64,000 nt of DNA, from the IMG/VR virus record IMGVR_UViG_3300037483_000378, positions 1 through 64,000 of that record; one strand, 5' to 3'. This document shows, piece by piece, positions 8,887 to 21,920 of the stretch (position 1 is the stretch's first letter; every line of letters starts with the position of its first letter). The stretch is from a virus. Taxonomy: Duplodnaviria > Caudoviricetes. Made by a program: the position numbers and the translations under genes. Under the pieces are notes generated by a model. That model searched no databases. It was not told the origin of the DNA and was given only the letters and a program-made list of their open reading frames with translations.

Positions 8887-9031
8887 TTAGTCCTCCCTCG
8901 TCGTGGTTGGCTCCGGCCTGCGTGTCCGCCGATCCCGCCATACTGGCCGCCGCTCCGTGAGACGTAGCGGGGTCCGTCGCCCGAGCGAGCGGGCGCGGAC
9001 CGAACATGTCCGGCTGATAGATTCCGGTCAC
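8887..9031 (-). pseudogene. Possible truncated remnant of an ARxTDPxTSH-type phage gene
   Basis: GTG overlapping upstream stop gives VTGIYQPDMFGPRPLARATDPATSHGAAASM, but this frame does not end at the TAA (8887) preceding the next gene. Confidence 0.3.
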
Positions 9032-10500
9032 GACGTCTCCTCCTTCGCCTTCGCCTTGATGCGGAAGCTGAACCGCATCTCGTAAAACGAGCGCGACCGC
9101 GCCCCGATCCGGCAGCACTCGCGGTGGAACGCGTGCGTTAGATGGTCTTCCACGGAGTCGTGCGCGCACTCATGAATCAGGAGCGCGTCGAGCGCTTCGT
9201 CGTCGCCATCCAAGATCGCCCGCTGCGCTTCCGGCGCTGCGATGTTGAAGGCGAGCTGGCCCTTGGCGCAGAATGCCTCGAACGGCAGGCCCGCGTCGTC
9301 GTAGAACGTGACCGCCATCGCATGTCCGAGCACGTGGTCCGCGAACGCCTCTGCGTAGCGCGCCGTCTGTACCATGGCGTCCGTCCACTTCGAGCGATCT
9401 ACCGGCGGAACGCCGTCCCTGCTCAGCGTCACGCGTCCGTCGGAGAACACCTTGCCGGCCGCCGGGATCGCCTCCGCGCGCCGCACCGACGCCCACGCCG
9501 CCTTCGGTAGCTCGGCGCCGTGGATGACGCGGTACCCGGCGTCTAGGGCGAGCTTGTTCGATTCCGGCGCCGATGGGTCGAACACCACCGCCTTCTCGCC
9601 AAAGCGGCGCGTCACGATCGCGCGCACCGCGTCGTCGTCCTCGATACTCGGGAGGGCCTCCGTAACCCACCCCTCGCGGCTCGTGTTCTCGTCCATCCGA
9701 GCGGCCATGATCTCTGCCGCCGCCGACTCGATCGCCTGCCGGTACCCGTACCGTACCGACGCGCGGTCGAGCGACAGTGGCACCTTCTGCCCTACCTCGA
9801 CGTGCCACGGGCAGTTGAGCTTGTCGATCGGAATGCCCATCTCGTAAAGCTGCGCGCGCTCCCCGTCCAGCGTCTCGTAGAGGCGGAGCACCGTGCTGCG
9901 CTTCACGTACCGGAACCCGCCTTCCTCGCCGCGTACCTCCGTCTCCAAGGAACGCTCGTCCTCGGCAATCGGCTCGCGGCTCGGAAGCACGCGGCCGTTG
10001 ATCGTCGTCTGAATGCCTGGCGGCGGGATAAGCAGACTTGTGAACGCGATCGCCTCCCGAAGCTGCTCGCGTGTCATGCGCAGCCGTGCCGACAGTATGC
10101 TTCCCGCCTCCGTCCGCTTCCCGCTTCGCGTCCGCCCCTTTGCGCTGAAGATCACGGTGCCTTTCGTGCTCGTCACGCGCGCCTCGTCAGCGACCGACAG
10201 CAGGAGCTTTTCGCCAACGTTGAACCGCCCGCGCTGCTCCGGGTTGTCGAGCTTGTACGAAGACCGGAAGATCATGTAAGAGTCCGCGAGGTCGCGGAAC
10301 CCGTCCGGGTTATCGTCCTTCACCTCGATACGCACGCGCGGCGAGCCGCCTACTGGATGAAGCTGCACATCTACGCGCGTCACCTTCTCGTCCCACGCGT
10401 TCTGGATCGGCTCCGTGATGATGAAGCTCATCCCGCGCCGCTTCGCGATTTCGGCGAGCCCATCACGGTCTACCTCGAACCAACTGGCGTTCTTCGCCAT
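9028..10500 (-). CDS. GHKL (Hsp90/MORC-like) ATPase with C-terminal HExxH motif
   Basis: EPIQNAWD (N box), DDNPDG (G1), RGRFNVGEK (G2); LLIHECAH near the C-terminus. Confidence 0.85.
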   Translation of the reverse strand: MAKNASWFEVDRDGLAEIAKRRGMSFIITEPIQNAWDEKVTRVDVQLHPVGGSPRVRIEVKDDNPDGFRDLADSYMIFRSSYKLDNPEQRGRFNVGEKLLLSVADEARVTSTKGTVIFSAKGRTRSGKRTEAGSILSARLRMTREQLREAIAFTSLLIPPPGIQTTINGRVLPSREPIAEDERSLETEVRGEEGGFRYVKRSTVLRLYETLDGERAQLYEMGIPIDKLNCPWHVEVGQKVPLSLDRASVRYGYRQAIESAAAEIMAARMDENTSREGWVTEALPSIEDDDAVRAIVTRRFGEKAVVFDPSAPESNKLALDAGYRVIHGAELPKAAWASVRRAEAIPAAGKVFSDGRVTLSRDGVPPVDRSKWTDAMVQTARYAEAFADHVLGHAMAVTFYDDAGLPFEAFCAKGQLAFNIAAPEAQRAILDGDDEALDALLIHECAHDSVEDHLTHAFHRECCRIGARSRSFYEMRFSFRIKAKAKEETS

Positions 10501-10501
10501 C

Positions 10502-10648
10502 TCAGGCCCTCACCTCCCTCTGCCGAGCCGGGCACGCACGCTTCACCGCGAACACCGCCAGCCTACCGTCCCGCTGGCGCTTGACCTCTACGCGCCACCC
10601 GGACATCTGGTACTGCCGCGCGATTTCCCGCGCCGTCTGCTTCATCAT
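10502..10648 (-). CDS. 48-aa microprotein (paralog of 7521-7688)
   Basis: RBS GAGGAGG; MMKQTAREIARQYQMSGWRVEVKRQRDGRLAVFAVKRACPARQREVRA. Confidence 0.7.
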   Translation of the reverse strand: MMKQTAREIARQYQMSGWRVEVKRQRDGRLAVFAVKRACPARQREVRA

Positions 10649-10974
10649 ACGACCTCCTCGTTTGTAGGTGATGGAACCTGATCCTTACCTTTCAGCCACG
10701 TACGTACGTTCTCCGCCGACCCCCATGATGGAGATGGTAGTTGCTCCCAGCAGAACCGTACGATGCCCGGTAGGTGCCGGATATTTACGGCGTCGGCCCT
10801 CGCGCATGCATCCCGCAGGTCGTTCTCCAGAACGGCGCGAAGGAAGTCGCCCGTTGGGACGCGATGGTGCCAGTAGCGCAGGAGCGATAAGACTACCTCC
10901 TGCGGACAGTACAAGGGGTCGTTGGCGTTTTCCGCTGCGTCGTCGTCGGCCATCATATCGTCCGTCAGGCTCAT
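10645..10974 (-). CDS. Conserved phage hypothetical protein
   Basis: PTGDFLRAVLENDL..A..RAD..N...WGS pattern recalled from phage genomes. Confidence 0.7.
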   Translation of the reverse strand: MSLTDDMMADDDAAENANDPLYCPQEVVLSLLRYWHHRVPTGDFLRAVLENDLRDACARADAVNIRHLPGIVRFCWEQLPSPSWGSAENVRTWLKGKDQVPSPTNEEVV

Positions 10975-10976
10975 CG

Positions 10977-11234
10977 TTACTCCGTCCTTTCGGGCTCTGC
11001 GGCCCGCCGTTGGATTCTTCCCTCGATGCTCGCGGCGATCCGCTCCAGCTTGTGCGCGGCCGCGCCTAACTCCTTCGCCAACTGCCACTCGTCCAGGTCA
11101 CGAGCGTGCCCCAACCCGCATCCCGAACACTTCACCGTTTCGGCCGTCAAGTCCGCCATCTCGGCACGGACCCGCCGCGCGGTCGCCCGCAGGACTTCCG
11201 CCATCATCACGGCCCGCTCGTCCGTCATCCGCAT
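10977..11234 (-). CDS. Small CxxC-containing hypothetical protein
   Basis: KCSGCG; packed in operon. Confidence 0.55.
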   Translation of the reverse strand: MRMTDERAVMMAEVLRATARRVRAEMADLTAETVKCSGCGLGHARDLDEWQLAKELGAAAHKLERIAASIEGRIQRRAAEPERTE

Positions 11235-11491
11235 GGCATCCTCCTCGCAACGCCCCGCTCTTCGTCGATCCTCGCCTGCTCCAACCGCGCGTGGGCCTTA
11301 GCCGTCCCAGTACAGCGCGCGCAGAGGTTGTCGGCCATCGGCTCCATGGGCCGCTCGCACTGGTTGCACCGGCCCTGCTCCCCGCACGGACTCTTGTCGT
11401 GGCCCTCCGTGTCCAGGGAATACCCGCAGTCCGGGCACGTCCCCGTGCGGCGGACCCAGCGGACCCGCTCGATCGTCGTGGCGTTCATCAT
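11225..11491 (-). CDS. Cys-rich zinc-finger protein
   Basis: CPDC, CNQC, CARC. Confidence 0.6.
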   Translation of the reverse strand: MMNATTIERVRWVRRTGTCPDCGYSLDTEGHDKSPCGEQGRCNQCERPMEPMADNLCARCTGTAKAHARLEQARIDEERGVARRMPCG

Positions 11492-12015
11492 GTTTCTCCC
11501 GTCAAGTTGCTGCGGGCGCGCCTCGCGGCGTGTAGCCTTCGCAGGTAGGCGCCGTCCCATAGGTCGGTGCGGTGTTCGTTGGCGGCCCTCAGAAACGCGC
11601 CCTCATTTGTGAGAATGCTCAGGTAGTGGGCCAGCGCCACGTCCGCTGGTGGTATCCACTCGTCCGGGTGAAGGCAATACGTCGCCGTAGCGAACCACCG
11701 GCTCCCGTGTCGCTCTACGCGCTGCGTAGTCCCGGTAGACGGGATGACGCGGTACCTGCCTCCCGCCGTGCCGGTCACGGTCACGTAGCGATTGCGCCGA
11801 AGCTCTGCGCGTTCCCCGTACGTCAGCCATGACTGCAAGAGTCGCATTGCCCGCCGCTGCGGCTTCCTACTCCGCCGCTCGCGAAGTAGGCAGCACGCGG
11901 CGGCTATGACGTCTCCCGCCTCCCTTGAAGAGATCCGGTCCCACGGGACCTGATCGGGCGCTACCCAACCGTCCGCCAGTTGCCGCGCGAGCGACGCGAC
12001 TTCCTCCGACGTCAT
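11488..12015 (-). CDS. Hypothetical protein coupled to the GG-terminated protein
   Basis: ATGA overlap; GGRYRV and YCLHP..IPPADVALA motifs. Confidence 0.7.
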   Translation of the reverse strand: MTSEEVASLARQLADGWVAPDQVPWDRISSREAGDVIAAACCLLRERRSRKPQRRAMRLLQSWLTYGERAELRRNRYVTVTGTAGGRYRVIPSTGTTQRVERHGSRWFATATYCLHPDEWIPPADVALAHYLSILTNEGAFLRAANEHRTDLWDGAYLRRLHAARRARSNLTGET

Positions 12016-12284
12016 CCGCCCCTCATCGGCGCCACGGCCACCGTCTTCCTGGCCCGCTTCCGAAACGAGCGCACCTGCCGCAGACGTCCATCGAGCGAAC
12101 TGGCTGACGGGTCCACGCCCTCTACCTCATCCGCGTCCACGCTCGCCGACGCGAAGAACGCGAACCCGGCGGCGCGCATGCTCTCGAACTCTACCCGCGC
12201 CTTGGCGACGGACGCAGGATCATCCGGGTCCCACCGGAGCGTGACATGGCCGGTCGGGTCGAGGATCTCCATCTCGCAGATCAT
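12012..12284 (-). CDS. 90-aa protein ending in Gly-Gly (candidate ubiquitin-like beta-grasp protein)
   Basis: C-terminus KTVAVAPMRGG; beta-beta-alpha-beta pattern judged by eye. Confidence 0.7.
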   Translation of the reverse strand: MICEMEILDPTGHVTLRWDPDDPASVAKARVEFESMRAAGFAFFASASVDADEVEGVDPSASSLDGRLRQVRSFRKRARKTVAVAPMRGG

Positions 12285-12880: not shown

Positions 12881-14083
12881 CTACTCGATCGGCACTACCT
12901 CACCGAACGGCGCCGCACGCCTCTTACCCGTCACGGCCCAGAGTACCGGGACGTCCGGCTCCGCGTCGGGGAAACTCCCAGCTAGGTCCGTGAGGTAGAT
13001 CACGCAGGCCGGGTCGTCGTACCGCTCCCGCACGGCATCGAACACCGGCTCGAATCGCGTGCCGCCTCCGCCTCGCGGCGTGAGCTTGATCGGGTCGCCG
13101 GGCTCGAACTCCTCCACGCCCTGCACGACTGCGTCCGCGTAGATTACGACCACGCGCTCCGGCTGCACGTCCTCCGCGATCGCAGTGATCTCCGCCGTGA
13201 ACTGCGCCAGCGTCACGTCATCTACCGAGCCCGACGTGTCGACGGCCACGATGATCGGCCTGACCTGCTCGCTCCGCAGCGCCGGAAGGTATAGCCCCCG
13301 CGCCAGATACCGCCCGCTCGGGCGCATCCAGGAGTAGTCGGCCCGAGCCGCGGCCGTGACGAAGCGCCGGAGCACGGAGCGCCAGTCCACGCGGGGCCGC
13401 GCCGCATCCCGGGCGAACCGCTCGGCTGCTCCCGGCAGGTTGCCCCTCTGCCTCGCCGCCGCCGCTGCCTGCTGGACCGCCTGCTGCCAGTCGGCCTCCG
13501 TCTGCCCCTCCGGCACGTCCGCCGGGGCATCACGTACCTCGCCCGGAGCCTCGCACGGCCCCGCCGCTGCCCCTACGCCTGTCGTGGGGGCTCTCCCCTC
13601 CCCCTTCTCCCCCCCGGCCTGCCCGTCAGGCTCCTCAGGCCCCGTAGCGTCGTCCTCCACCCCGGCCCCATCGCCTTCCGGCGGGCCTACTGGGAGCCGG
13701 TCGTAGATCCACTCCGCCGTCTTGCCGTCGTTGGCCGGGTCGAGCAGCCCGCCCTCCGGTAGCAGGAACCCGCTCGCGGCGAGCATCGGGTTGATCGCAT
13801 GGTCGCACGCCACGTTCCACCGCTTCAGGTCCCGGCCCGCGCGCCGCCAGGGGTGGCCGAGCGCGCAGTGGCTCACCTCGTGGGCGAGCGTCCCGACCGT
13901 CTCCGCGTGCGTCAAGCTCTCAATGAACGTCGGGCTGTAGCCGAGCGTCACGCCGTCTACCCATGCGGTCTTGCACGTCGGGTCCTCTACCACCTTGAGC
14001 CGCAGGGCGAGCGAGCCCCAGAACGGCTGGTCGAGGACGAGCGCCGTGCGCGCCGCCTGAACCTTCCGGAACGCGTCCGTCAT
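12881..14083 (-). CDS. DUF2201-type metallopeptidase + VWA domain protein
   Basis: AHEVSH (HExxH), acidic linker, VAVDTSGS MIDAS, GGGGTRF, IYLTD. Confidence 0.9.
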   Translation of the reverse strand: MTDAFRKVQAARTALVLDQPFWGSLALRLKVVEDPTCKTAWVDGVTLGYSPTFIESLTHAETVGTLAHEVSHCALGHPWRRAGRDLKRWNVACDHAINPMLAASGFLLPEGGLLDPANDGKTAEWIYDRLPVGPPEGDGAGVEDDATGPEEPDGQAGGEKGEGRAPTTGVGAAAGPCEAPGEVRDAPADVPEGQTEADWQQAVQQAAAAARQRGNLPGAAERFARDAARPRVDWRSVLRRFVTAAARADYSWMRPSGRYLARGLYLPALRSEQVRPIIVAVDTSGSVDDVTLAQFTAEITAIAEDVQPERVVVIYADAVVQGVEEFEPGDPIKLTPRGGGGTRFEPVFDAVRERYDDPACVIYLTDLAGSFPDAEPDVPVLWAVTGKRRAAPFGEVVPIE

Positions 14084-14087
14084 GGTC

Positions 14088-15041
14088 TCAGTCCTCCGTG
14101 GGCTGATAGAAGTCCGACATGGCGGCCAGGATCGAATCCACGCGTGCCGCCGCTTCGATCCGGGCCAGGTCGTCGGTCTTGATGTCCTCGACGCTGAAGC
14201 CGCCCAGCTCCTCGATCACGCGCTGCCGCATGGCTTCGAGCGACGGGTCGCCGGTGACGTTCAGGGCGCCGAGCGCCTCAGCCGTCTCGATGAGGTTCGT
14301 GACCACGGAGCGATGGAACGGCGGCAGCTTGCCGTCCTTCCCTTCCGCGCGCTCCGCTTCGGCACGGGCGGCGATGCGCTCGCCCATGTGACGCACGGCC
14401 TGGTAAAGCCTGTCCCAGGCGTCGCGCATCGCGACGTCGATGGCCTCCGCGACGCGACGCGTCACGCTGTCTGCGATCACCCGCCGCTCCTCGTCGGGAA
14501 GCTCCAGGCGGAAGTCGTTGCCGCTCGGCAGCGGCGCGAACTCGACCGCGATGCCGAACCGCGCCCTCACATCGGCGGGCGATGGGTAGTCCTGTTCCCG
14601 ATAGAGCCCGTTAAGGTCGGCCCTGGCCTGCTTCTTCAGCTCGTCGTACCGGGCGAGCAGTGCATCTACGGCTGCGTCCAGCGCGGCATGCTGCTCGCGG
14701 ATCTTCGCGCTGAACGTCATGTAGGCGGCGCTCGGCAGTAGTCGCCAGCCGTCGTCCTTCCACGGCAGCGAGTTCTCCCAGAGGATCATGCGCGCCTGCA
14801 CGGAAGCCCGCACCGCAGCACGATGCTCCGGGGCGTTGTTCGCGAATAGGTGCTTACGGTACTTTCCCGCATCCCTCGACGCGGCGTGCTCGCGGTTTAC
14901 CTCGTCCGTCACCTGCTTGTCCGTCACGTTCGCGCCCCAGAAGGAGCAGCGCACGGAGACGAGCATGGCGCGGGAGTGGATGTCTGCCGGCTCCGTCACG
15001 GTCGGGCGGCTCTCGCCATTGCTGATGTCGTTGGCGGTCAT
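14088..15041 (-). CDS. DUF3150-like helical protein
   Basis: LPWKDDGWRLLP and DYPSPADVRARF; position between AAA and VWA genes. Confidence 0.7.
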   Translation of the reverse strand: MTANDISNGESRPTVTEPADIHSRAMLVSVRCSFWGANVTDKQVTDEVNREHAASRDAGKYRKHLFANNAPEHRAAVRASVQARMILWENSLPWKDDGWRLLPSAAYMTFSAKIREQHAALDAAVDALLARYDELKKQARADLNGLYREQDYPSPADVRARFGIAVEFAPLPSGNDFRLELPDEERRVIADSVTRRVAEAIDVAMRDAWDRLYQAVRHMGERIAARAEAERAEGKDGKLPPFHRSVVTNLIETAEALGALNVTGDPSLEAMRQRVIEELGGFSVEDIKTDDLARIEAAARVDSILAAMSDFYQPTED

Positions 15042-15046
15042 GGCTT

Positions 15047-16072
15047 CTAATTCCCCCCGGTGATAAGGTTGCCGAGGTCGCCCGTCGCGAGACGGACGAA
15101 CTCAACGGTCTGCGTGATGGCGGCATCCTTCCGCGCAGCGTCGCGGACGAGCAGGGCGGCGAACTCCCCGGCCCCTCCGTCCGTGAGCCGCTCTGCGTAG
15201 CGAGCGACGCGGCCGAAATTCCGCTCAGTGCTCCGCATCGCGAGCGCTGTGACGACGGCATACCGCGTCGCGGGCTGCTCTGGGATCGGCGCGGCGTCCG
15301 GGTCCATCAAAATGGCGTCGATGCTCGGCAGATCCCGGTAGAGCCGGAGGAACGCGCCGAACTCCACGGCCGCCGCTTCGCCCACGGCGCCGACGATGGC
15401 CTGGTGCTGGAGGGCCATCGGTAGCCCGAGCGCCAGGAGCTTCCCGGCGTGCGCCCACGTGCGGGGCACCGGGCTGTTCGTCAGGTCCGCCGTTGCCTGG
15501 AACGCGCAGAGCAGGTCGGGCCGGAACCGCAGGAAGGCGATCAGCTCGGCGGGCACGTCGTTGGCGAACGCCCACCGGCACCAGTCGTCGAGGTCGGCTT
15601 CAAGTTCGACGATCGCCGCGAACCGGCTCTTCACCGGCTCCAGAATACCGCTCACCCCGGCGCGGTCCGTGCGTCGGTTCGTCGCGGCGATGAACGTCAC
15701 GCAGCCAGGCAGCAGGTGGCCGTTGACGCGCCGCGCCAAGAGCAGCTGCATGAAGCTCGCCTGTACGGACGGGGGCGCTTGCCCCAGGTCGTCCAGAAAC
15801 CACACCGTCGGCTTCGTGGCGCGAATCGCCTGCGCCAGCTCGCCGAACGGCAGGAACGTTGCGCTGTCCCCGTCCTTCGCGATCCACGGGAGCCCCTTGG
15901 CGTCCGTCGGGTCGGCGACGGCCGGGTGCGAGATGATGACGTCGGCCCCGGCGTCCTTGGCCGCCTGAGCGACGATGTCCGACTTGCCAACTCCCGGTGC
16001 CCCGGTGACGAGCACTGGCAGGCGGGCCGCGATCATGCGACCAAGGATGGTCGCGAGGTCTGATGGCTTCAT
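15047..16072 (-). CDS. MoxR/dynein-related AAA+ ATPase
   Basis: Walker A GAPGVGKS, Walker B WFLDD, AATNR, KSRF, PVPRTW. Confidence 0.9.
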   Translation of the reverse strand: MKPSDLATILGRMIAARLPVLVTGAPGVGKSDIVAQAAKDAGADVIISHPAVADPTDAKGLPWIAKDGDSATFLPFGELAQAIRATKPTVWFLDDLGQAPPSVQASFMQLLLARRVNGHLLPGCVTFIAATNRRTDRAGVSGILEPVKSRFAAIVELEADLDDWCRWAFANDVPAELIAFLRFRPDLLCAFQATADLTNSPVPRTWAHAGKLLALGLPMALQHQAIVGAVGEAAAVEFGAFLRLYRDLPSIDAILMDPDAAPIPEQPATRYAVVTALAMRSTERNFGRVARYAERLTDGGAGEFAALLVRDAARKDAAITQTVEFVRLATGDLGNLITGGN

Positions 16073-17167: not shown

Positions 17168-17243
17168 TGCGGGCTGGAGGGAGTCGAACCCTCATGCCGG
17201 GAACCGCCCTGGGCTCCCTGGCCGCCTCCGCAGGCCAGCCCGC
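17168..17243 (-). ncRNA. tRNA-like element (8-bp acceptor, 5-bp T stem, 6-nt central loop)
   Basis: GCGGGCUG/CAGCCCGC+A; T arm GAGGG-UUCGACU-CCCUC; CCUG/CAGG arm; GAGCC-CAGGGC-GGUUC arm. Confidence 0.6.
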
Positions 17244-17891
17244 TGAAATCTCTCCCTCTGTTCGCCCGCTGCCGCTGTCGGTCCGGTCCGTGTGGTGCGC
17301 CGTTTTCCCCCTCGCCGCCTCCGTTGCGCTTGTGTGGCTCATTGGCCGCGCGGGCTGTCGCGATTCGTGTGGTGGGGATAGGTCGCCGGGTCCGGCTGTC
17401 GCCGTGGCGTGCGGGCTCCGTCGGGAGTCCCGTGTACCTCTACCGTGCCGCCTCCGCTTCTGCTGCGCCGAACTCCGAAGGCTCATCACCTTCGGCTACT
17501 CGGCGCCTGACGCTTCCTCGCGTGGGGCTCTTCGGTGCCACCGTGTCACGCTGTCGCCGCTTCTTTTGGGGCGCGGCCTCGAAGGCTCTCGAATCCGCCC
17601 GGGGCGTTTGCGTCGGTGGTCTTGTCGTGAGGTTCGCTGCGTACGCAGCGCCGAGTCTCCTGCCCTCGGTCTTGGCCGGTGCCAGCCTATTGGGTCCCGT
17701 CCGACCCTCACCGCCCTGTTTCGCTCGGGCGGCCAGCGGCGGGGTTCCTCTCGTCCGGCATCCCTGGCCGGGGGTCCCGCTTCCTGCCTACAATAATAAT
17801 GGGGGCGCCCCCCAATAGCTAGCCCCATAATCACATTGCGCCGCAACGACTTACGGTCATCGGCCTTTCGCGGAAGTGCCGCATAGGCACG

Positions 17892-17928
17892 AAAAGGTGG
17901 CCACGGCCCCCTATAGTAGTAGGCCACC
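17892..17928 (-). terminator. Probable intrinsic terminator of the tRNA operon
   Basis: GGUGGCC...GGCCACC stem followed by UUUU just after the last tRNA. Confidence 0.55.
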
Positions 17929-17960
17929 GCCCCGGACGGGCCTGGACCACCTGGTCACCA

Positions 17961-18034
17961 TCGGGGCGGCCGGACTCGAACCGGCGACCCTCTGCTCCCA
18001 AAGCAGATGCGCTGCCCAACTGCGCCACGCCCCG
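17961..18034 (-). tRNA. tRNA-Pro(TGG)
   Basis: Manual cloverleaf; loop TT TGG GA. Confidence 0.92.
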
Positions 18035-18042
18035 TCTTTCCA

Positions 18043-18124
18043 TGCGAGCGGGGGGACTCGAACCCCCATGGCCATCGGCCACGAGCTTCTAAGGCTCGCG
18101 CGTCTGCCGTTTCGCCACGCTCGC
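18043..18124 (-). tRNA. tRNA-Leu(TAG)
   Basis: Cloverleaf with variable arm; loop CT TAG AA. Confidence 0.92.
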
Positions 18125-18130
18125 GCGCTC

Positions 18131-18150
18131 ACTCGGGTTTCGTGGTAAGG
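18131..18150. repeat. 20-bp inverted repeat, copy 1 (partner 21954-21973)
   Basis: ACTCGGGTTTCGTGGTAAGG is the exact reverse complement of 21954-21973. Confidence 0.95.
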
Positions 18151-18156
18151 GGAAGA

Positions 18157-18230
18157 TGCCCTCGGCCGGACTCGAACCGGCTGCCTCGCGCTTAGGGGGC
18201 GCGCGCTCTGTCCGGTTGAGCTACGAAGGC
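18157..18230 (-). tRNA. tRNA-Arg(CCT), C33 variant
   Basis: Loop CC CCT AA; overlaps the HNH stop codon. Confidence 0.88.
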
Positions 18231-18823
18231 GTCGGGTCGAACAGCTCCTCGACCGCAGCGCGCGCCTCATCGCCGAGCCGCCCAAGGAATACCTCGGCAC
18301 GCGTCATCGCCCGCGGCTTCCGGCGCAGGTACATCCGTGCCTCAGCCGGCGTGCGGTTGTCCTTCCGCGCGTTGCACGTCGAGCAGGCGGTCACGGTGTT
18401 CTCGTACACGTTGCGCCCGCCGCGTGACTCCGGCGTCACGTGGTCGATGGTGAGGAACTCGCCCGCCGCCGTGAGCCGAATCGTCTCCGTGCCGTAGCGC
18501 ACCATGACGTCACGCCGTCCGTGCCCGCGCGCAAGATCGCTCTCGTGCCGCCCGCAGTACATGCAGCGGTGCCCGTCCCGTAGGTAGACGTTCCCGCGCG
18601 TCCAGGACGCGCGACCGAACACCACCCCTGCGAAGTCAGCGAGCGCCTCAAGCACGATCACGACTGGGGCCGGGACGCGCACGCGGCCGTCCGCATTCCG
18701 GAACACGCGGGTCGGGTGATCCCTCAACGACTGCGCCTTGCCCTCCAAGAGCAGGAGCACCGCGCGGTTGACCGGGATCTCGTCGATCGGCGCGAAGCTC
18801 GGGGCCAATACCAGGGTCTTCAT
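18221..18823 (-). CDS. HNH endonuclease
   Basis: RDGHRCMYCG, TIDHVTP.SRGG, N.VTACSTCNARK. Confidence 0.93.
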   Translation of the reverse strand: MKTLVLAPSFAPIDEIPVNRAVLLLLEGKAQSLRDHPTRVFRNADGRVRVPAPVVIVLEALADFAGVVFGRASWTRGNVYLRDGHRCMYCGRHESDLARGHGRRDVMVRYGTETIRLTAAGEFLTIDHVTPESRGGRNVYENTVTACSTCNARKDNRTPAEARMYLRRKPRAMTRAEVFLGRLGDEARAAVEELFDPTPS

Positions 18824-18887
18824 CTTCGTCTCATCGTGCGATCAGTTGAAGGGTGGAACAGCAGCGCGCACCGTGCGCGCAGGGAAA

Positions 18888-18974
18888 CGGAGCGGGTGGG
18901 ATTCGAACCCACGGGGCGCGAACGCCCTCCGGTTTTCAAGACCGGTGCGATAGGCCGGGCTCTGCCACCGTTCC
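18888..18974 (-). tRNA. tRNA-Ser(TGA)
   Basis: Variable arm; loop CT TGA AA. Confidence 0.9.
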
Positions 18975-18976
18975 AG

Positions 18977-19047
18977 AGATGCCGCCCGGAGTCGAACCGG
19001 GCCTGACGGGTTTGCAGTCCGTCGCCTCGCCGCTCGGCATCGGCACC
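18977..19047 (-). tRNA. tRNA-Cys(GCA)
   Basis: Loop CT GCA AA; U73. Confidence 0.88.
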
Positions 19048-19054
19048 ACGAACA

Positions 19055-19127
19055 AGCGCGCGACGGGTTTCGAACCCGTGGCCTCGAGCTTGGGAAGCTC
19101 GCGCTCTACCGACTGAGCTACGCGCGC
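19055..19127 (-). tRNA. tRNA-Gly(CCC)
   Basis: Loop TT CCC AA; U73. Confidence 0.92.
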
Positions 19128-19131
19128 GAAG

Positions 19132-19212
19132 TGCGTCCGGCAGGACTCGAACCTGCAAGCCAGAAGGCACTCGCTTTTGAGGCGAGCGCGTAGACCATTC
19201 CGCCACGGACGC
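19132..19212 (-). tRNA. tRNA-Leu(CAA)
   Basis: Loop CT CAA AA; variable arm. Confidence 0.92.
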
Positions 19213-19218
19213 AAGAAG

Positions 19219-19303
19219 TGCTGGCGGGGAGACTCGAACTCCCACGGGCCGAAGCCCCGAGCGTTTTTAGGACGCCCACGTCTGCCGGTTCCGCCACGCC
19301 AGC
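19219..19303 (-). tRNA. tRNA-Leu(TAA), C33 variant
   Basis: Loop CC TAA AA; variable arm. Confidence 0.88.
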
Positions 19304-19310
19304 GAAGAAA

Positions 19311-19394
19311 CGGATGGAGCGGGATTCGAACCCGCGCGGGGTCACCCCCAACGCCTTAGCAGGGCGTCGCCTTCAGCCACTCGGCCACCCATCC
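19311..19394 (-). tRNA. tRNA-Ser(GCT)
   Basis: Loop CT GCT AA; variable arm. Confidence 0.92.
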
Positions 19395-19398
19395 AAAG

Positions 19399-19483
19399 TG
19401 CTCGCGCCCGGATTCGAACCGGGATGCCGTCGCCGGCACGGCGCCCTGAACGCCGCGCGTCTGCCAAGTTTCGCCACGCGAGC
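19399..19483 (-). tRNA. tRNA-Leu(CAG)
   Basis: Loop TT CAG GG; variable arm. Confidence 0.92.
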
Positions 19484-19485
19484 AA

Positions 19486-19568
19486 TGCGCACGGAGGGAT
19501 TCGAACCCTCACGCCTCAATGGCACGGCCCCCTCAAGACCGCGTGTCTACCAGCTCCACCACGTGCGC
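19486..19568 (-). tRNA. tRNA-Leu(GAG)
   Basis: Loop TT GAG GG; variable arm. Confidence 0.9.
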
Positions 19569-19578
19569 GCATACCCTA

Positions 19579-19652
19579 CGGCCCCGCCCGGACTCGAACC
19601 GGGAACGACGCGGTTCCAAAGACCGCCGCCTCTGCCATTCGGCCACGGGGCT
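19579..19652 (-). tRNA. tRNA-Gln(TTG)
   Basis: Loop CT TTG GA; A1:C72 mismatch. Confidence 0.85.
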
Positions 19653-19666
19653 CCTACTCTGCGAAG

Positions 19667-19741
19667 TCTGGGGGGTGGGATTCGAACCCACGACCTCCGC
19701 GTCCCGAACGCGGCGCGCTGGCCGGACTGCGCTACTCCCAG
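19667..19741 (-). tRNA. tRNA-Pro(CGG)
   Basis: Loop TT CGG GA. Confidence 0.92.
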
Positions 19742-19748
19742 ATGATGA

Positions 19749-19822
19749 TGGGCCCGCCGGGACTCGAACCCGGGACCGTCGCCTTATGAGGGCGCCGCTC
19801 TACCGGACTGAGCTACGGGCCC
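19749..19822 (-). tRNA. tRNA(CAT), probably Ile2 (lysidine type), otherwise elongator Met
   Basis: GGGCCCG acceptor; loop CT CAT AA. Confidence 0.85.
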
Positions 19823-19827
19823 GAAAA

Positions 19828-19902
19828 TGCCCAGGGAGGGAATCGAACCCCCGGCCTCCTGCTTGTAAGACAGGCGCTCTCCGCTTGCTGAGCTACCCGG
19901 GC
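19828..19902 (-). tRNA. tRNA-Val(TAC)
   Basis: Loop CT TAC AA. Confidence 0.92.
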
Positions 19903-19924
19903 GGTGCTGTCGTGATGAAACCAG

Positions 19925-19999
19925 ACCGAGGAACGGGATTCGAACCCGCGGCCTTCGCCATGGCAAGGCGACGCTCTGGCCGGACTGAGCTATCCTCGG
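19925..19999 (-). tRNA. tRNA-Gly(GCC)
   Basis: Loop TT GCC AT; U73; atypical C1-G72. Confidence 0.85.
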
Positions 20000-20005
20000 A
20001 AGTGA

Positions 20006-20116
20006 GCGTGTTGGGGAACATGCGGCAACGGAGAGCCGGTTGCCCGGCGAGTCCAGGCGATGCCTGGTTGCTTTCGTTATGAGCGAAGTAACCGTCACCT
20101 TTCGCCACCGACACGC
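20006..20116 (-). ncRNA. Non-tRNA structured RNA displaying a CAU anticodon stem-loop
   Basis: Closing stem GCGUGUCGG/CCAACACGC; UUCG-CUCAUAA-CGAA; no T arm. Confidence 0.5.
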
Positions 20117-20117
20117 A

Positions 20118-20191
20118 TAGCGGGAGAGGGATTTGAACCCTCGACCTTCAGCTTATGAGGCTGACGAGCTACCAGGCTGCTCTATCCCGCT
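20118..20191 (-). tRNA. tRNA-Met(CAT), initiator-like body
   Basis: fMet-type D arm GAGCAGCCTGGTAGCTC; loop CT CAT AA; A1-U72; anticodon stem TCAGC. Confidence 0.88.
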
Positions 20192-20197
20192 GATAAA

Positions 20198-20283
20198 TGG
20201 ACCCGGCTGGATTTGAACCAGCGTGCACCACATGGCCTCCCGTTTATCAGACGGGCGCTCTGACCGGACTGAGCTACGGGTCC
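20198..20283 (-). tRNA. tRNA-Ile(GAT) with long variable arm
   Basis: Loop CT GAT AA; 16-nt variable region AGGCCATGTGGTGCAC. Confidence 0.88.
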
Positions 20284-20289
20284 AACTGA

Positions 20290-20675
20290 TGGAGGCGGCG
20301 GGAGTCGAACCCGCGTCCGTTCACGCTTCCAAGTCGTGACTTCTAGTGCGATTGTCGCGTTTCGAGTTTCTCACCCAAACTAACGTCCTCGGATGAGGCG
20401 GGGCTCTCGCGGTGCGCCAGACCTACTACCCCTCCGAAGGGTGAGCCCCCTTCAGGTGGCCTCGTCTTTCCGAGTGCCCATCTGGCTGATCGACGTTCTC
20501 TAAGCGACACCAGAATGATCACGAAGAGAACGGGAGACTTACGCTGCCTTGCGGAGCGGCTCCGAGTTGAGATCGCTGTTCGCGTTTCTCGGTTGTCCTA
20601 GCGCGTTAGCGACTGAGCTAGGATCGTCGCGCACATCACTTCCTTTCCACGAAACGTCGAAACCTTTACGCCCCC
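20290..20675 (-). ncRNA. ssrA: tmRNA; tag (A)ANSDLNSEPLRKAA
   Basis: 5' GGGGGCGTAAAGGTTTCGAC; 3' GACGCGGGTTCGACTCCCGCCGCCTCCA with G3:U pair; tag ORF 20583-20539. Confidence 0.93.
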
Positions 20676-20700
20676 GTTTTTCATTCCCCCCCCCCAACCA

Positions 20701-20772
20701 TGGAGCTGGCGGGGATCGAACCCGCGGCGTCCGCCATGCGAAGACGGCGCTCTCCCTCTGAGCTACAGCCCC
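20701..20772 (-). tRNA. tRNA-Ala(CGC)
   Basis: G3:U70; loop TT CGC AT. Confidence 0.9.
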
Positions 20773-20775
20773 TCA

Positions 20776-20849
20776 AGCCAACGCCCGGCATCGAACCGGG
20801 GACCTTCCGCTTACAAGGCGGGTGCTCTGCCTAGCTGAGCTACGTTGGC
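20776..20849 (-). tRNA. tRNA-Thr(TGT)
   Basis: Loop CT TGT AA. Confidence 0.9.
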
Positions 20850-20856
20850 GCGTTCT

Positions 20857-20929
20857 GCGCGGAACCGGCGACTGTCCCCTCTTCGGTGTCTTTCGACCGT
20901 CCGGTACGGAATGTCCATCCGGTCCGCGC
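20857..20929 (-). ncRNA. Unknown ~73-nt structured RNA inside the tRNA array
   Basis: Closing stem GCGCGGACCGG/CCGGUUCCGCGC; internal GUC-GAAA-GAC. Confidence 0.4.
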
Positions 20930-20934
20930 GTATA

Positions 20935-21021
20935 CGGAGCGGGAAGGATTCGAACCTTCGTGCCCACGTGGGGCTCTCGCTTTCGGGGCGAGCGCGTTTG
21001 GCCTGGCTCCGCCACCGCTCC
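20935..21021 (-). tRNA. tRNA-Ser(CGA), C33 variant
   Basis: Loop CC CGA AA; variable arm; G73. Confidence 0.88.
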
Positions 21022-21028
21022 ATCGAAG

Positions 21029-21101
21029 TTGCCCCACCAGGATTCGAACCTGGAACCTCCGCGTCCAGAGCGCGGCGCGCTGCCAGTTGTGCTATGGGGC
21101 A
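21029..21101 (-). tRNA. tRNA-Gln(CTG)
   Basis: U1-A72; loop CT CTG GA. Confidence 0.9.
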
Positions 21102-21111
21102 ATGTGAAGAA

Positions 21112-21188
21112 GGGTGACCGACGGGATTTGAACCCGCGATCTCCGGGGCCACGGCCCGGCGCTTTCGGCCGACTAAGCTACGATCACC
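21112..21188 (-). tRNA. tRNA-His(GTG), C33 variant
   Basis: G-1:C73; loop CC GTG GC. Confidence 0.88.
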
Positions 21189-21195
21189 ATTGAAG

Positions 21196-21270
21196 TGCGC
21201 CCGGAGGGATTCGAACCCCCGACCTCCTGATCCGTAGTCAGGCGCTCCGTCCAGACTGAGCTACGGGCGC
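21196..21270 (-). tRNA. tRNA-Arg(ACG)
   Basis: Loop CT ACG GA. Confidence 0.93.
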
Positions 21271-21287
21271 AAGGTAGGCACGAGACG

Positions 21288-21360
21288 CGGTCTGACGGAG
21301 CCCCGCCACGGGAGTCGAACCCTGCCGCGCCCCGTGCCATCACGGCCGCCCATGAGACCG
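21288..21360 (-). ncRNA. Degenerate tRNA-like element
   Basis: GGG-UUCGACU-CCC T loop; closing CGGUCU/AGACCG; CCGUG-AUGG-CACGG arm. Confidence 0.35.
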
Positions 21361-21370
21361 ACCGTGTAAA

Positions 21371-21443
21371 AGCTGCGAGCGGGAGTTGAACCCACGACCT
21401 CCTGCTTACGGGGCGGCGCTCTCCCGTGCTGAGCTATCGGAGC
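21371..21443 (-). tRNA. tRNA-Thr(CGT), degenerate/C33 variant
   Basis: Loop CC CGT AA; irregular anticodon stem (CCGC/GCAGG); C:C mismatch in acceptor. Confidence 0.65.
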
Positions 21444-21446
21444 AAG

Positions 21447-21520
21447 TCTGGACGGCGGGACTCGAACCCGCGACCCCTGGTCCCCCAGACCAGTGCGCTA
21501 CCGGGCTGCGCCACGTCCAG
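21447..21520 (-). tRNA. tRNA-Pro(GGG)
   Basis: Loop CT GGG GG. Confidence 0.92.
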
Positions 21521-21525
21521 AAGAG

Positions 21526-21598
21526 TACCCCGAGCGCGACTCGAACGCGCGACCTTCTGCTTCGGAGGCAGACGCTCTGTCCGCTGAGCTATCGGGGC
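21526..21598 (-). tRNA. tRNA-Arg(CCG)
   Basis: Loop CT CCG AA. Confidence 0.92.
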
Positions 21599-21605
21599 GA
21601 AAAAA

Positions 21606-21679
21606 CGGGACCGGAAGGAATCGAACCCTCGACCTCTCGTTCTGGAGACGAGCGCTCTACCAGCGTGAGCTACGGACCC
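21606..21679 (-). tRNA. tRNA-Trp(CCA)
   Basis: Loop CT CCA GA; G73. Confidence 0.9.
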
Positions 21680-21683
21680 GAAG

Positions 21684-21758
21684 TGTGCGCGGACGGAGTT
21701 GAACCGCCGACAACCTGGCTCTTCACGCCAGTGCTCTACCACGCTGAGCTACGCGCAC
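21684..21758 (-). tRNA. tRNA-Phe(GAA)
   Basis: Loop GT GAA GA (atypical G32, G37). Confidence 0.87.
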
Positions 21759-21761
21759 GCA

Positions 21762-21833
21762 TACCCCCACGGGGAATCGAACCCCGGTCGCCACCTTGAA
21801 AGAGTGGTGTCCTGGCCGCTAGACGATGAGGGC
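21762..21833 (-). tRNA. tRNA-Glu(TTC)
   Basis: Loop CT TTC AA. Confidence 0.92.
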
Positions 21834-21840
21834 AAAGGCA

Positions 21841-21913
21841 TACCTCCGGGCGGAATTGAACCGCCGTTCCCGCCGTGAGAGGGCAGCGTCCTGGGCCACT
21901 AGACGACGGAGGC
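21841..21913 (-). tRNA. tRNA-Glu(CTC)
   Basis: Loop CT CTC AC. Confidence 0.92.
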
Positions 21914-21920
21914 ATTGCTG

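What the first reader, a model, noticed from the sequence alone, without database searches (positions are those of the whole stretch)
11488..12284. Candidate phage ubiquitin-like modifier and coupled partner enzyme
The 90-aa protein ends in hhhhP-x-x-GG (KTVAVAPMRGG), like MoaD/ThiS/Urm1/ubiquitin-like proteins, and shows a beta-beta-alpha-beta order consistent with a beta-grasp fold. It is translationally coupled to a 175-aa protein with a Cys/His motif (YCLHP). No E1 or sulfur-transfer gene is visible in the window. The operon also encodes two HExxH peptidase-like proteins and a MoxR AAA/VWA chaperone. Inference: a phage protein-tagging system, or a decoy against host Ubl-conjugating defences (CBASS Cap2, Bil).
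Basis: partly seen in the sequence, partly recalled or inferred. Interest (0 to 1): 0.75.

Follow-up and report, generated by a model that had tools for sequence, protein, structure and literature searches.

The report
Phage diglycine ubiquitin-like protein pair
An uncultured phage carries a two-gene unit, found in many phages and in some Bradyrhizobium plasmids and named in no database searched: a small ubiquitin-shaped protein that nearly always ends in Gly-Gly, and a partner with an invariant cysteine that is predicted to hold that tail, which looks like a protein-tagging system without its own activating enzyme.

Summary
On the minus strand, a 90-aa ORF (12012-12284) ends in ...AVAPMRGG-stop and overlaps by ATGA a 175-aa ORF (11488-12015) carrying YCLHP.

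The partner sits next to the Ubl in nearly every locus with flanking DNA. It is directly downstream, apart from one rearranged lineage and three loci with a gap. This also held when the partner was used as bait. C114, P122, D125, E138 and N146 are invariant in the aligned sequences (52-53 of 53). A complex model (ipSAE 0.81, best control 0.00) puts the GG tail on the Cys loop.

The MoxR, VWA and HExxH genes nearby are not conserved with the pair.

Best reading, at 0.4: a minimal Ubl plus E2-like pair that depends on an activator supplied in trans. The chemistry is unproven. Earlier scan notes describe similar pairs in Chloroflexota; I did not test whether they are homologous.

The parts
12012..12284 (-). 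Gene for a 90-aa beta-grasp (ubiquitin-like) protein ending in VAVAPMRGG-stop. The Gly-Gly codons are at 12015-12020 and the stop codon at 12012-12014.
   Evidence: ORF. Tail invariant in close homologues. 120 of 150 family representatives end in GG. Beta-grasp topology from AlphaFold2. The structural matches are dominated by beta-grasp proteins.
11488..12015 (-). Gene for the 175-aa partner. It has a variable N-terminal helical part (residues 1-49) and a conserved core (about residues 50-150): helices, a four-strand meander, a Cys-x-His loop and more helices.
   Evidence: ORF. AlphaFold2 mean pLDDT 88. Invariant C114, P122, D125, E138 and N146 over 53 sequences. Lies next to the Ubl gene (directly downstream in most) in nearly all loci with flanking DNA.
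12012..12015 (-). ATGA overlap of the Ubl stop codon and the partner start codon (translational coupling).
   Evidence: Sequence. In 22 related loci the partner start overlaps the Ubl stop or lies within a few bases of it in most.
11650..11676 (-). Codons for partner residues 114-122 (C-L-H-P-D-E-W-I-P): the invariant Cys114, His116 and Pro122 loop that follows strand 4.
   Evidence: Codons read (gca at 11674-11676 is Cys on the minus strand; gtg at 11668-11670 is His). Conservation. Residues 114-122 touch Ubl residues 84-90 in the complex model.

Best explanation
These two genes form a self-contained, mobile module carried by many uncultured phages and by Bradyrhizobium plasmids.

The first product is a small beta-grasp protein. 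Its free C-terminal Gly-Gly is the selected feature; consensus tail R-T-V-A-V-[R/P]-P-[M/L]-[R/A]-G-G. The second product is made in step with the first. It binds the sheet face of the beta-grasp protein and lays the Gly-Gly tail onto a loop that carries an invariant cysteine, flanked by invariant Asp, Glu and Asn.

The most likely mechanism is a minimal ubiquitin-like modifier plus an E2-like carrier or ligase. The Gly-Gly carboxylate would be activated by an enzyme supplied in trans, because the module brings no E1. A host MoeB/ThiF-type adenylating enzyme is the obvious candidate. The activated tail would pass to Cys114 as a thioester and then to targets during early infection.

Targets may be DNA-associated. 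Many family members carry AT-hook-like GRP motifs, and one carries a helix-turn-helix domain, in the loop before the last strand. The module also sits among recombination and replication genes.

Shown here: the family, the conserved GG, the gene linkage and the conserved residues. Modelled: the fold and the complex. Inferred: activation, thioester formation, transfer and targets.
For: 1. GG conservation and precursor-like forms. 120 of the 150 best family representatives end exactly in GG. At least 14 more have the same tail motif followed by 1-73 non-conserved residues.

3. Linkage. The partner lies directly downstream in L001-L015 wherever downstream DNA exists. With the partner as bait, 28 metagenome loci were found. 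A GG-stop Ubl precedes the partner in every locus with upstream DNA, directly in most and after a 0.2-0.4 kb gap in L019, L036 and L042. There are two exceptions: L033/L034, where a ...QLCGG Ubl-like ORF lies downstream of two partner paralogues, and L040, where the partner is truncated. L028 is ambiguous.

4. An active-site-like set of invariant residues in the partner. A56 (49/49), C114 (52/52), P122, D125, E138 and N146 (each 53/53) are invariant among 53 sequences. H116 is kept in 47 of 52.

5. Complex model. The ipSAE is 0.81 and the best of 3 controls is 0.00. That mark was reached by 58 of 80 solved complexes and by 2 of 110 mismatched pairs. The three runs agree in at least 95% of contacts, and the partner chain's pLDDT is at least 77. 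Ubl residues 84-90 touch partner residues 114-122 and 144-146. Ubl residues 8, 42, 44 and 68-70 touch the helix at 125-137.

7. No E1 in cis. ThiF is absent from this phage (93% complete), from a second phage (94% complete) and from the complete Bradyrhizobium plasmid apart from a sub-threshold hit 49 kb away.

Against: There is no HPN motif. His116 is replaced by Gln or Glu in five metagenome relatives whose own Ubl (found for four of the five) still ends in GG, and by Val in the Bradyrhizobium partner.

Every characterised bacterial Ubl conjugation pathway named in the papers I read (type II CBASS, Bil, Bub) encodes its own E1 (PMC11601596). Use of a host E1 is pure inference.

The complex model used unpaired alignments of my own making and may reflect memory of ubiquitin-enzyme complexes. 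It would look the same for a peptidase-product complex or a carrier-enzyme complex.

No expression or protein data were examined.
Confidence: 0.4

Rival explanations
1. Non-covalent pair or sulfur-carrier pair. The Gly-Gly tail simply plugs into the partner's conserved pocket, as the MoaD tail does in MoaE or the ThiS tail in ThiG. It would either regulate or inhibit the partner, or deliver sulfur as a thiocarboxylate made by host MoeB/MoeZ plus a sulfurtransferase. No protein is tagged.
For: The genes are tightly coupled, as expected for a stoichiometric complex. The model places the tail in a pocket lined by invariant residues. MoaD, TtuB and SAMP1 are among the structural matches. There is no E1, E2-family or JAB signature in cis, which is the usual situation for MoaD-MoaE or ThiS-ThiG pairs, whose E1 is encoded elsewhere. 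Earlier scan notes on similar Chloroflexota pairs reached the same shortlist.
Against: The partner matches no MoaE, ThiG, CysM or PP-loop family. Phages have no evident need for a new sulfur-insertion enzyme. The precursor-like extensions after GG and the ubiquitin-like [L/M]-R-G-G tail fit modifiers as well as carriers. An invariant Cys next to the tail end suggests acyl transfer rather than mere binding.
Confidence: 0.25
2. Counter-defence pair. The Ubl is a decoy substrate for host Ubl machinery (Bil, type II CBASS Cap2, Bub), and the partner is a Ubl-specific thiol peptidase or trap that removes or blocks host conjugates.
For: The module is carried by phages and by mobile plasmid islands in early-gene regions where anti-defence genes often lie. 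It brings no E1, so it must interact with host enzymes if it has any chemistry. The model geometry, with the sheet face bound and the tail threaded to a Cys/His site, is also what a deubiquitinase-product complex looks like. Some family members need trimming after GG.
Against: His116 is dispensable in several relatives, which argues against a Cys-His protease dyad. The fold is not papain-like or JAB-like in any search. Eighty per cent of the Ubls need no trimming. No PADLOC or anti-defence family matches. Hosts with Bil, Bub or Cap2 systems are a minority, while the module is widespread. No paper describing such a decoy was found in the library.
Confidence: 0.15
3. Toxin-antitoxin-like or addiction/exclusion module. 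The small upstream protein neutralises the downstream enzyme by occupying its active site with its C-terminal tail.
For: The layout is small upstream gene, larger downstream gene, overlapping stop and start. The module sits on plasmids beside integrases and IS elements and in phages. The predicted tight complex covers the partner's conserved site.
Against: No known toxin or antitoxin family matches. Antitoxins rarely keep a strictly invariant free C-terminal dipeptide, or precursor-like extensions after it. AT-hook and HTH insertions could suit an autoregulating antitoxin, but they are not universal (34 of 150).
Confidence: 0.1

Closest known systems
Bil (BilABCD) and related bacterial Ubl conjugation operons (classes 6a-6e of Iyer, Burroughs and Aravind 2006, PMC1779556; type II CBASS Cap2/Cap3; Bub, PMC11601596)
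   Same: A small beta-grasp protein with a reactive C-terminal glycine sits next to a Cys-bearing protein with an E2-like layout. In some of those E2-like families the conserved His lies C-terminal to the Cys, as in the C-x-H here. These systems are also linked to mobile elements and phage-host conflict.
   Different: Those operons always encode an E1 (ThiF-type) and usually a JAB or serine peptidase. None is present here. Neither protein here matches their Pfam or PADLOC models. This module has two genes and is mainly phage-borne.
Sulfur-carrier and enzyme pairs: MoaD-MoaE, ThiS-ThiG, CysO-CysM, TtuB-TtuA
   Different: There is no sequence relation of either protein to these families. The partner has an invariant Cys at the tail site and an E2-like topology rather than a MoaE, ThiG or PLP fold. 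The setting is a phage early region.
E2-independent modifiers: archaeal SAMPs, Thermus TtuB, eukaryotic Urm1 (PMC9574740 for Urm1; SAMP and TtuB from my own knowledge)
   Different: Those systems need no dedicated Cys partner, whereas here the partner is obligatory. There is no sequence similarity.
Phage lambda/T1 tail assembly protein I (TAPI), a Ubl domain with the gpK JAB/NlpC peptidase (PMC1779556)
   Same: A phage-encoded beta-grasp domain with a conserved C-terminal glycine, linked to a thiol/metallo-peptidase partner.
   Different: TAPI lies in the tail module, is fused to a C-terminal domain and pairs with JAB plus NlpC/P60. The pair here lies in the early replication/recombination region, ends in a free GG, and has a partner with no peptidase family match.

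Membership tests
Ubiquitin-like beta-grasp modifiers and carriers (ubiquitin, ThiS, MoaD, Urm1, SAMP) | Beta-grasp fold | tested here: met
Ubiquitin-like beta-grasp modifiers and carriers (ubiquitin, ThiS, MoaD, Urm1, SAMP) | Conserved C-terminal Gly-Gly, either free or exposed by trimming | tested here: met
   120 of 150 representatives end in GG. At least 14 more have GG plus a 1-73 residue extension. All 22 locus copies examined end in GG-stop.
Ubiquitin-like beta-grasp modifiers and carriers (ubiquitin, ThiS, MoaD, Urm1, SAMP) | Sequence match to a curated Ubl family (PF00240, PF02597, Prok_Ub and others) | tested here: not met
   No Ubl Pfam family matched any of 96 members at E<=0.1. There were no NCBIfam or PHROG hits. 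A profile search against PDB sequences found no Ubl.
Ubiquitin-like beta-grasp modifiers and carriers (ubiquitin, ThiS, MoaD, Urm1, SAMP) | C-terminal adenylation, thioester, thiocarboxylate or isopeptide formation | not testable with these tools
   This needs biochemistry or mass spectrometry.
E2 / UBC-fold conjugating enzymes (partner protein) | UBC fold: N-terminal helix, four-strand antiparallel meander, then helices | tested here: inconclusive
E2 / UBC-fold conjugating enzymes (partner protein) | Invariant catalytic Cys in the loop after strand 4 | tested here: met
   C114 is kept in 52 of 52 aligned sequences. It directly follows strand 106-113.
E2 / UBC-fold conjugating enzymes (partner protein) | HPN motif upstream of the Cys (classical E2), or a sequence match to UQ_con or Prok-E2 models | tested here: not met
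   There is no HPN motif; the local sequence is C-x-H-P. Pfam gave no hit at E<=0.1. UQ_con, Prok-E2_A and Prok-E2_B found nothing in the whole record at E<=10. Prok-E2_C, D and E were not scanned separately.
Bil / type II CBASS / Bub operons | ThiF-type E1 encoded in the operon | tested here: not met
   PF00899 is absent from this phage and from the 95.7-kb relative G001. On the Bradyrhizobium plasmid there is only a sub-threshold hit 49 kb away. No third conserved gene was found in 18 neighbourhoods.
Bil / type II CBASS / Bub operons | JAB or other deconjugating peptidase in the operon | tested here: not met
   PF14464 is absent from the record. No peptidase family was found next to the pair in relatives.
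Sulfur-carrier/enzyme pairs (MoaD-MoaE, ThiS-ThiG, CysO-CysM) | Partner homologous to MoaE, ThiG, CysM or TtuA | tested here: not met
   No Pfam or NCBIfam match. No PDB sequence match.
Sulfur-carrier/enzyme pairs (MoaD-MoaE, ThiS-ThiG, CysO-CysM) | GG tail inserted into the partner's active site | tested here: inconclusive
   The complex model puts residues 84-90 on the conserved loop 114-122 and near N146. This is a model only.

The most novel reading that the evidence does not exclude
Phages and plasmids carry their own two-protein ubiquitin-like tagging system that has no dedicated E1. A GG-terminated beta-grasp tag is loaded onto the invariant cysteine of a previously unrecognised, highly diverged E2-like enzyme, either by hijacking a housekeeping host MoeB/ThiF adenylase or by new activation chemistry. 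Early in infection it is then attached to host or phage proteins, possibly DNA-bound ones. This would be a virus-side counterpart of the bacterial Bil, CBASS and Bub pathways.
Probability: 0.3. Interest if true: 0.9.

Novelty: new variant of a known kind. Interest (0 to 1): 0.72.

Why it matters
In the papers I found, bacterial ubiquitin-like conjugation appears as an anti-phage defence (type II CBASS, Bil, Bub), and each of those pathways brings its own E1. This module is widespread and matched no family in any library searched. It sits on the phage and plasmid side, and it has the two most diagnostic features of a modifier system: a strictly conserved free Gly-Gly on a beta-grasp protein, and a dedicated partner with an invariant cysteine predicted to hold that tail. 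It has no activating enzyme.

If the module conjugates, it would show that viruses of bacteria use Ubl tagging themselves. It would also define a new minimal E2-like family and raise the question of how a Ubl is activated without a cognate E1.

If it does not conjugate, it is still a new, very common Ubl-partner complex of phage early regions. The Bradyrhizobium japonicum USDA 123 plasmid copy (QIH92_53600 and QIH92_53595) offers a cultured organism for testing.

Tried and rejected
Family and collection searches that found nothing:
- Pfam, PHROGs, NCBIfam and PADLOC gave no family for either protein.
- Profile searches against PDB sequences gave nothing for either family.
- The ESM Atlas returned only unnamed 'hypothetical protein' clusters, from viruses, Chloroflexota and Pseudomonadota.
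- Cultured phages (INPHARED) had no tblastn hit for the Ubl or for two partners.
- GTDB species genomes gave no hit with the narrow patterns from A1 or A2. This does not exclude distant members.
- A DNA pattern for ...AVRPMRGG-stop in IMG/VR found only one contig that was already known.

Structure searches for the partner:
- Foldseek against the PDB and the pdb_via second look gave nothing clear.
- BFVD gave two unnamed viral proteins (E 6.8e-4 and 9.1e-3).

Technical limits:
- The broad alignments A4 and A5 were too diverse for the search for related loci.
- The metagenome loci could not be searched for ThiF through handles.

Ideas rejected:
- That the MoxR AAA, the VWA/DUF2201 protein and the HExxH proteins form one system with the pair. 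They are not conserved with it.
- That the Ubl is fused to its partner in nature. The one apparent fusion, P0057, looks like a deletion chimera.

Literature: searches found no description of a phage Ubl plus Cys-partner pair. One search failed on term length.

Full report
**1. The observation**

On the minus strand, a 90-aa ORF (12012-12284) ends KTVAVAPMRGG-stop. A 175-aa ORF (11488-12015) begins with an ATG that overlaps that stop codon as ATGA, and it contains YCLHP at residues 113-117.

The window is part of an 80.5-kb IMG/VR virus record that CheckV rates 93% complete. It is a tailed phage with 66.6% G+C. All the genes I identified lie on the minus strand. It encodes a portal, a tape measure protein, a head protease, RecE/RecT, an RNase T-type exonuclease, DnaB and RusA, plus 32 tRNAs and a tmRNA.

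**2. The small protein**

No Pfam, PHROG, NCBIfam or PADLOC family matches it. A word-based search found eight relatives at 41-74% identity. In all of them the tail A-V-x-P-[M/L]-[R/K]-G-G is kept at the very C-terminus.

A profile search of 1.8 billion cluster representatives found 417 proteins at E<=1e-3 and 74 at E<=1e-10. Of the best 150, 120 end exactly in GG. At least 14 of the other 30 keep the same motif followed by 1 to 73 unrelated residues. A subgroup reads ...AMAGGP followed by an extension. The rest are fragments, divergent forms or one chimera.

The tail consensus is R-T-V-A-V-[R/P]-P-[M/L]-[R/A/Q]-G-G. A terminus that is either free GG or GG plus a variable extension is the pattern seen in ubiquitin-like modifiers and sulfur carriers; this comparison rests on my own knowledge.

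AlphaFold2 with the family alignment gives mean pLDDT 79 and pTM 0.69. The order is two strands, a helix and three more strands, with a disordered loop at residues 50-64. Foldseek hits are weak (best E 0.06) but are mostly ubiquitin, RA, PB1, UBX, UFM1 and SUMO domains. VIA-align gives:

So the fold is beta-grasp at the level of topology, with modest scores and no sequence relation to known Ubl families.

The loop before the last strand varies in length. In 34 of 150 members it carries GRP (AT-hook-like) motifs, three of which pass Pfam's AT_hook model at E<=0.1. In one member it holds an HTH_3/HTH_31 domain.

**3. The partner**

It too is unannotated everywhere. AlphaFold2 gives mean pLDDT 88.3. 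The model has a variable helical N-terminus (residues 1-49), two helices, a four-strand meander (78-113), Cys114 directly after strand 4, the loop C-L-H-P-D-E-W-I-P-P-A-D, and three more helices.

Over 53 distinct sequences, A56, C114, P122, D125, E138 and N146 never change wherever they align. H116 is kept in 47 of 52, with Gln four times and Glu once. In the Bradyrhizobium copy it is Val.

The layout of helix, four-strand meander, Cys loop and helices is that of the UBC fold. Iyer et al. 2006 describe bacterial E2-like families that lack HPN but have a conserved His C-terminal to the Cys (PMC1779556). E2 membership therefore stays inconclusive on fold and is not met on sequence.

**4. Linkage**

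In every locus reached through the Ubl that has downstream DNA, the partner follows immediately (L001-L004, L006, L007, L009-L012, L014).

As an independent test, I used the partner as bait in JGI metagenomes and obtained 28 loci. Wherever upstream DNA exists, a GG-stop ORF of the Ubl family precedes the partner. It is directly upstream in most loci and separated by a 0.2-0.4 kb gap in L019, L036 and L042. This includes short fragments such as L022 (...AIRPMRGG-stop) and L032 (...MPQLQGG-stop). There are two exceptions:
- L033/L034 have two partner paralogues followed by a Ubl-like ORF ending ...QLCGG.
- L040 has a truncated partner.

L028 is ambiguous.

In most of the 22 junctions examined, the partner's start overlaps the Ubl stop or lies within a few bases of it.

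Clustering all neighbouring ORFs from 20 loci showed that only these two families recur widely, in 15 and 18 loci. There is no third conserved gene. The MoxR-like ATPase, the DUF2201/VWA protein and the 490-aa HExxH protein of this window are therefore neighbours, not parts of the system. The 490-aa protein does recur once, just after the partner in L036.

The pair also occurs on 12 Bradyrhizobium plasmids. On pUSDA123-1 a 73-aa protein ending ...YPRLVGG-stop lies 18 bases upstream of a 140-aa partner homologue, near integrases and IS elements (hhalign probability 96.2% and 98.5%).

**5. Do the two proteins bind?**

The complex model scores ipSAE 0.81, against 0.00 for the best of three controls. 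That mark was reached by 58 of 80 solved complexes and by 2 of 110 mismatched pairs. The three runs agree in at least 95% of contacts, and the partner chain's pLDDT is at least 77.

The interface joins Ubl residues 84-90 (the tail) to partner residues 114-122 and 144-146. It also joins Ubl residues 6, 8-13, 42, 44, 68-70, 80 and 82 (the sheet face) to partner helices 51-63 and 125-137. Most of the partner's invariant residues (A56, C114, P122, D125, N146) and H116 lie in this interface; E138 is not listed among the contacts.

There are caveats. The alignments were my own and unpaired. The model may recall ubiquitin-enzyme complexes. The same geometry fits an E2~Ub complex, a deubiquitinase-product complex or a MoaD-MoaE-type complex.

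**6. What is missing**

No ThiF-type E1 and no Prok-JAB gene is present in this phage. The near-complete 95.7-kb relative also has no ThiF. The complete Bradyrhizobium plasmid has only a sub-threshold hit 49 kb away. Pfam scans of 20 further proteins of the phage, beyond the ten neighbours, found no adenylating enzyme.

**7. Interpretation**

Three things are solid:
- the family is large and real;
- selection keeps a free Gly-Gly on a beta-grasp-like protein;
- the partner is an obligate companion with an active-site-like set of invariant residues.

The model suggests that the GG tail meets the invariant Cys.

I favour (0.4) a minimal Ubl plus E2-like pair that relies on an activator supplied in trans, most simply a host MoeB/ThiF-type enzyme. 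The reasons are the Cys next to the tail end, the invariant Asn and acidic residues, the dispensable His (which argues against a Cys-His protease), the UBC-like layout and the precursor-like Ubl forms. The early-region setting and the AT-hook and HTH insertions hint at DNA-associated targets, but that is inference.

The rivals are:
- a non-covalent or sulfur-carrier pair (0.25);
- a counter-defence decoy plus peptidase (0.15);
- a toxin-antitoxin-like module (0.1).

**8. Novelty**

No library or paper I could search describes this pair. Earlier notes of this scan (e1-2319163, e1-3103464, e1-1070854) describe GG-ended beta-grasp proteins with a one-cysteine partner in Chloroflexota and large phages, without nearby E1. 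They may be the same superfamily; the ESM Atlas also lists Chloroflexota clusters near the partner. Sequence look-ups found no shared words, however, so I could not test this.

I class the finding as a new variant of a known kind: a Ubl system lacking E1 and deconjugase, and carried by phages and plasmids.

Noticed in passing
window 17168-21914 (minus strand): A block of 32 tRNA genes plus a tmRNA gene (20290-20675, tag peptide ANSDLNSEPLRKAA), with an HNH endonuclease gene (18221-18823) inside the block.
   Followed up: partly
window 12881-16072 (minus strand): A MoxR-like AAA_5 ATPase (15047-16072, phrog_1297), an unannotated 317-aa protein (14088-15041) and a DUF2201_N putative metallopeptidase plus VWA protein (12881-14083, phrog_1314) form a trio just upstream of the Ubl pair. 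The trio is not conserved with the pair in relatives.
   Followed up: partly
window 9028-10500 (minus strand); L036 about 10350-11900: A 490-aa protein with a weak GHKL/sacsin-like ATP-binding N-terminus and a C-terminal HECAHD motif. A homologue (512 aa) lies immediately after the partner gene in L036. It is the only neighbour that recurs outside the close lineage, and it might be an accessory ATP-using component.
   Followed up: partly
L033 6605-7411 and L034 480-1551: The module is rearranged. There are two tandem partner paralogues; the first has Gln at the His116 position and the second aligned poorly at the Cys loop. They are followed, not preceded, by a Ubl-like ORF ending ...QLCGG.
   Followed up: partly
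P0070 (L013 556-1173) and 34 of 150 family representatives: The loop before the last beta-strand of the Ubl carries a whole HTH_3/HTH_31 domain in P0070. In 34 of the 150 representatives it carries GRP (AT-hook-like) motifs. This suggests that some members bind DNA.
   Followed up: partly
L045 5677-6339 (Bradyrhizobium japonicum USDA 123 plasmid pUSDA123-1, QIH92_53600 and QIH92_53595): A cultured-organism copy of the pair, both genes annotated as hypothetical proteins, lies between tyrosine recombinase genes and IS elements. Similar copies are on 11 other Bradyrhizobium plasmids.
   Followed up: yes
P0057 (143 aa): An apparent chimera of the Ubl N-terminal half and the partner C-terminal half. 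It is probably a deletion or assembly artefact rather than a natural fusion.
   Followed up: no
window 31353-37511 (minus strand): A 2052-aa ORF sits next to a 1076-aa tail protein and the tape measure gene. It is presumably a giant tail or host-recognition protein, but I did not annotate it.
   Followed up: no
window 11225-11560 (minus strand): A 111-aa Cys-rich zinc-ribbon-like ORF directly follows the partner gene. As called from its first ATG, it overlaps the partner's last 73 bases. It is not conserved with the pair in other loci.
   Followed up: no
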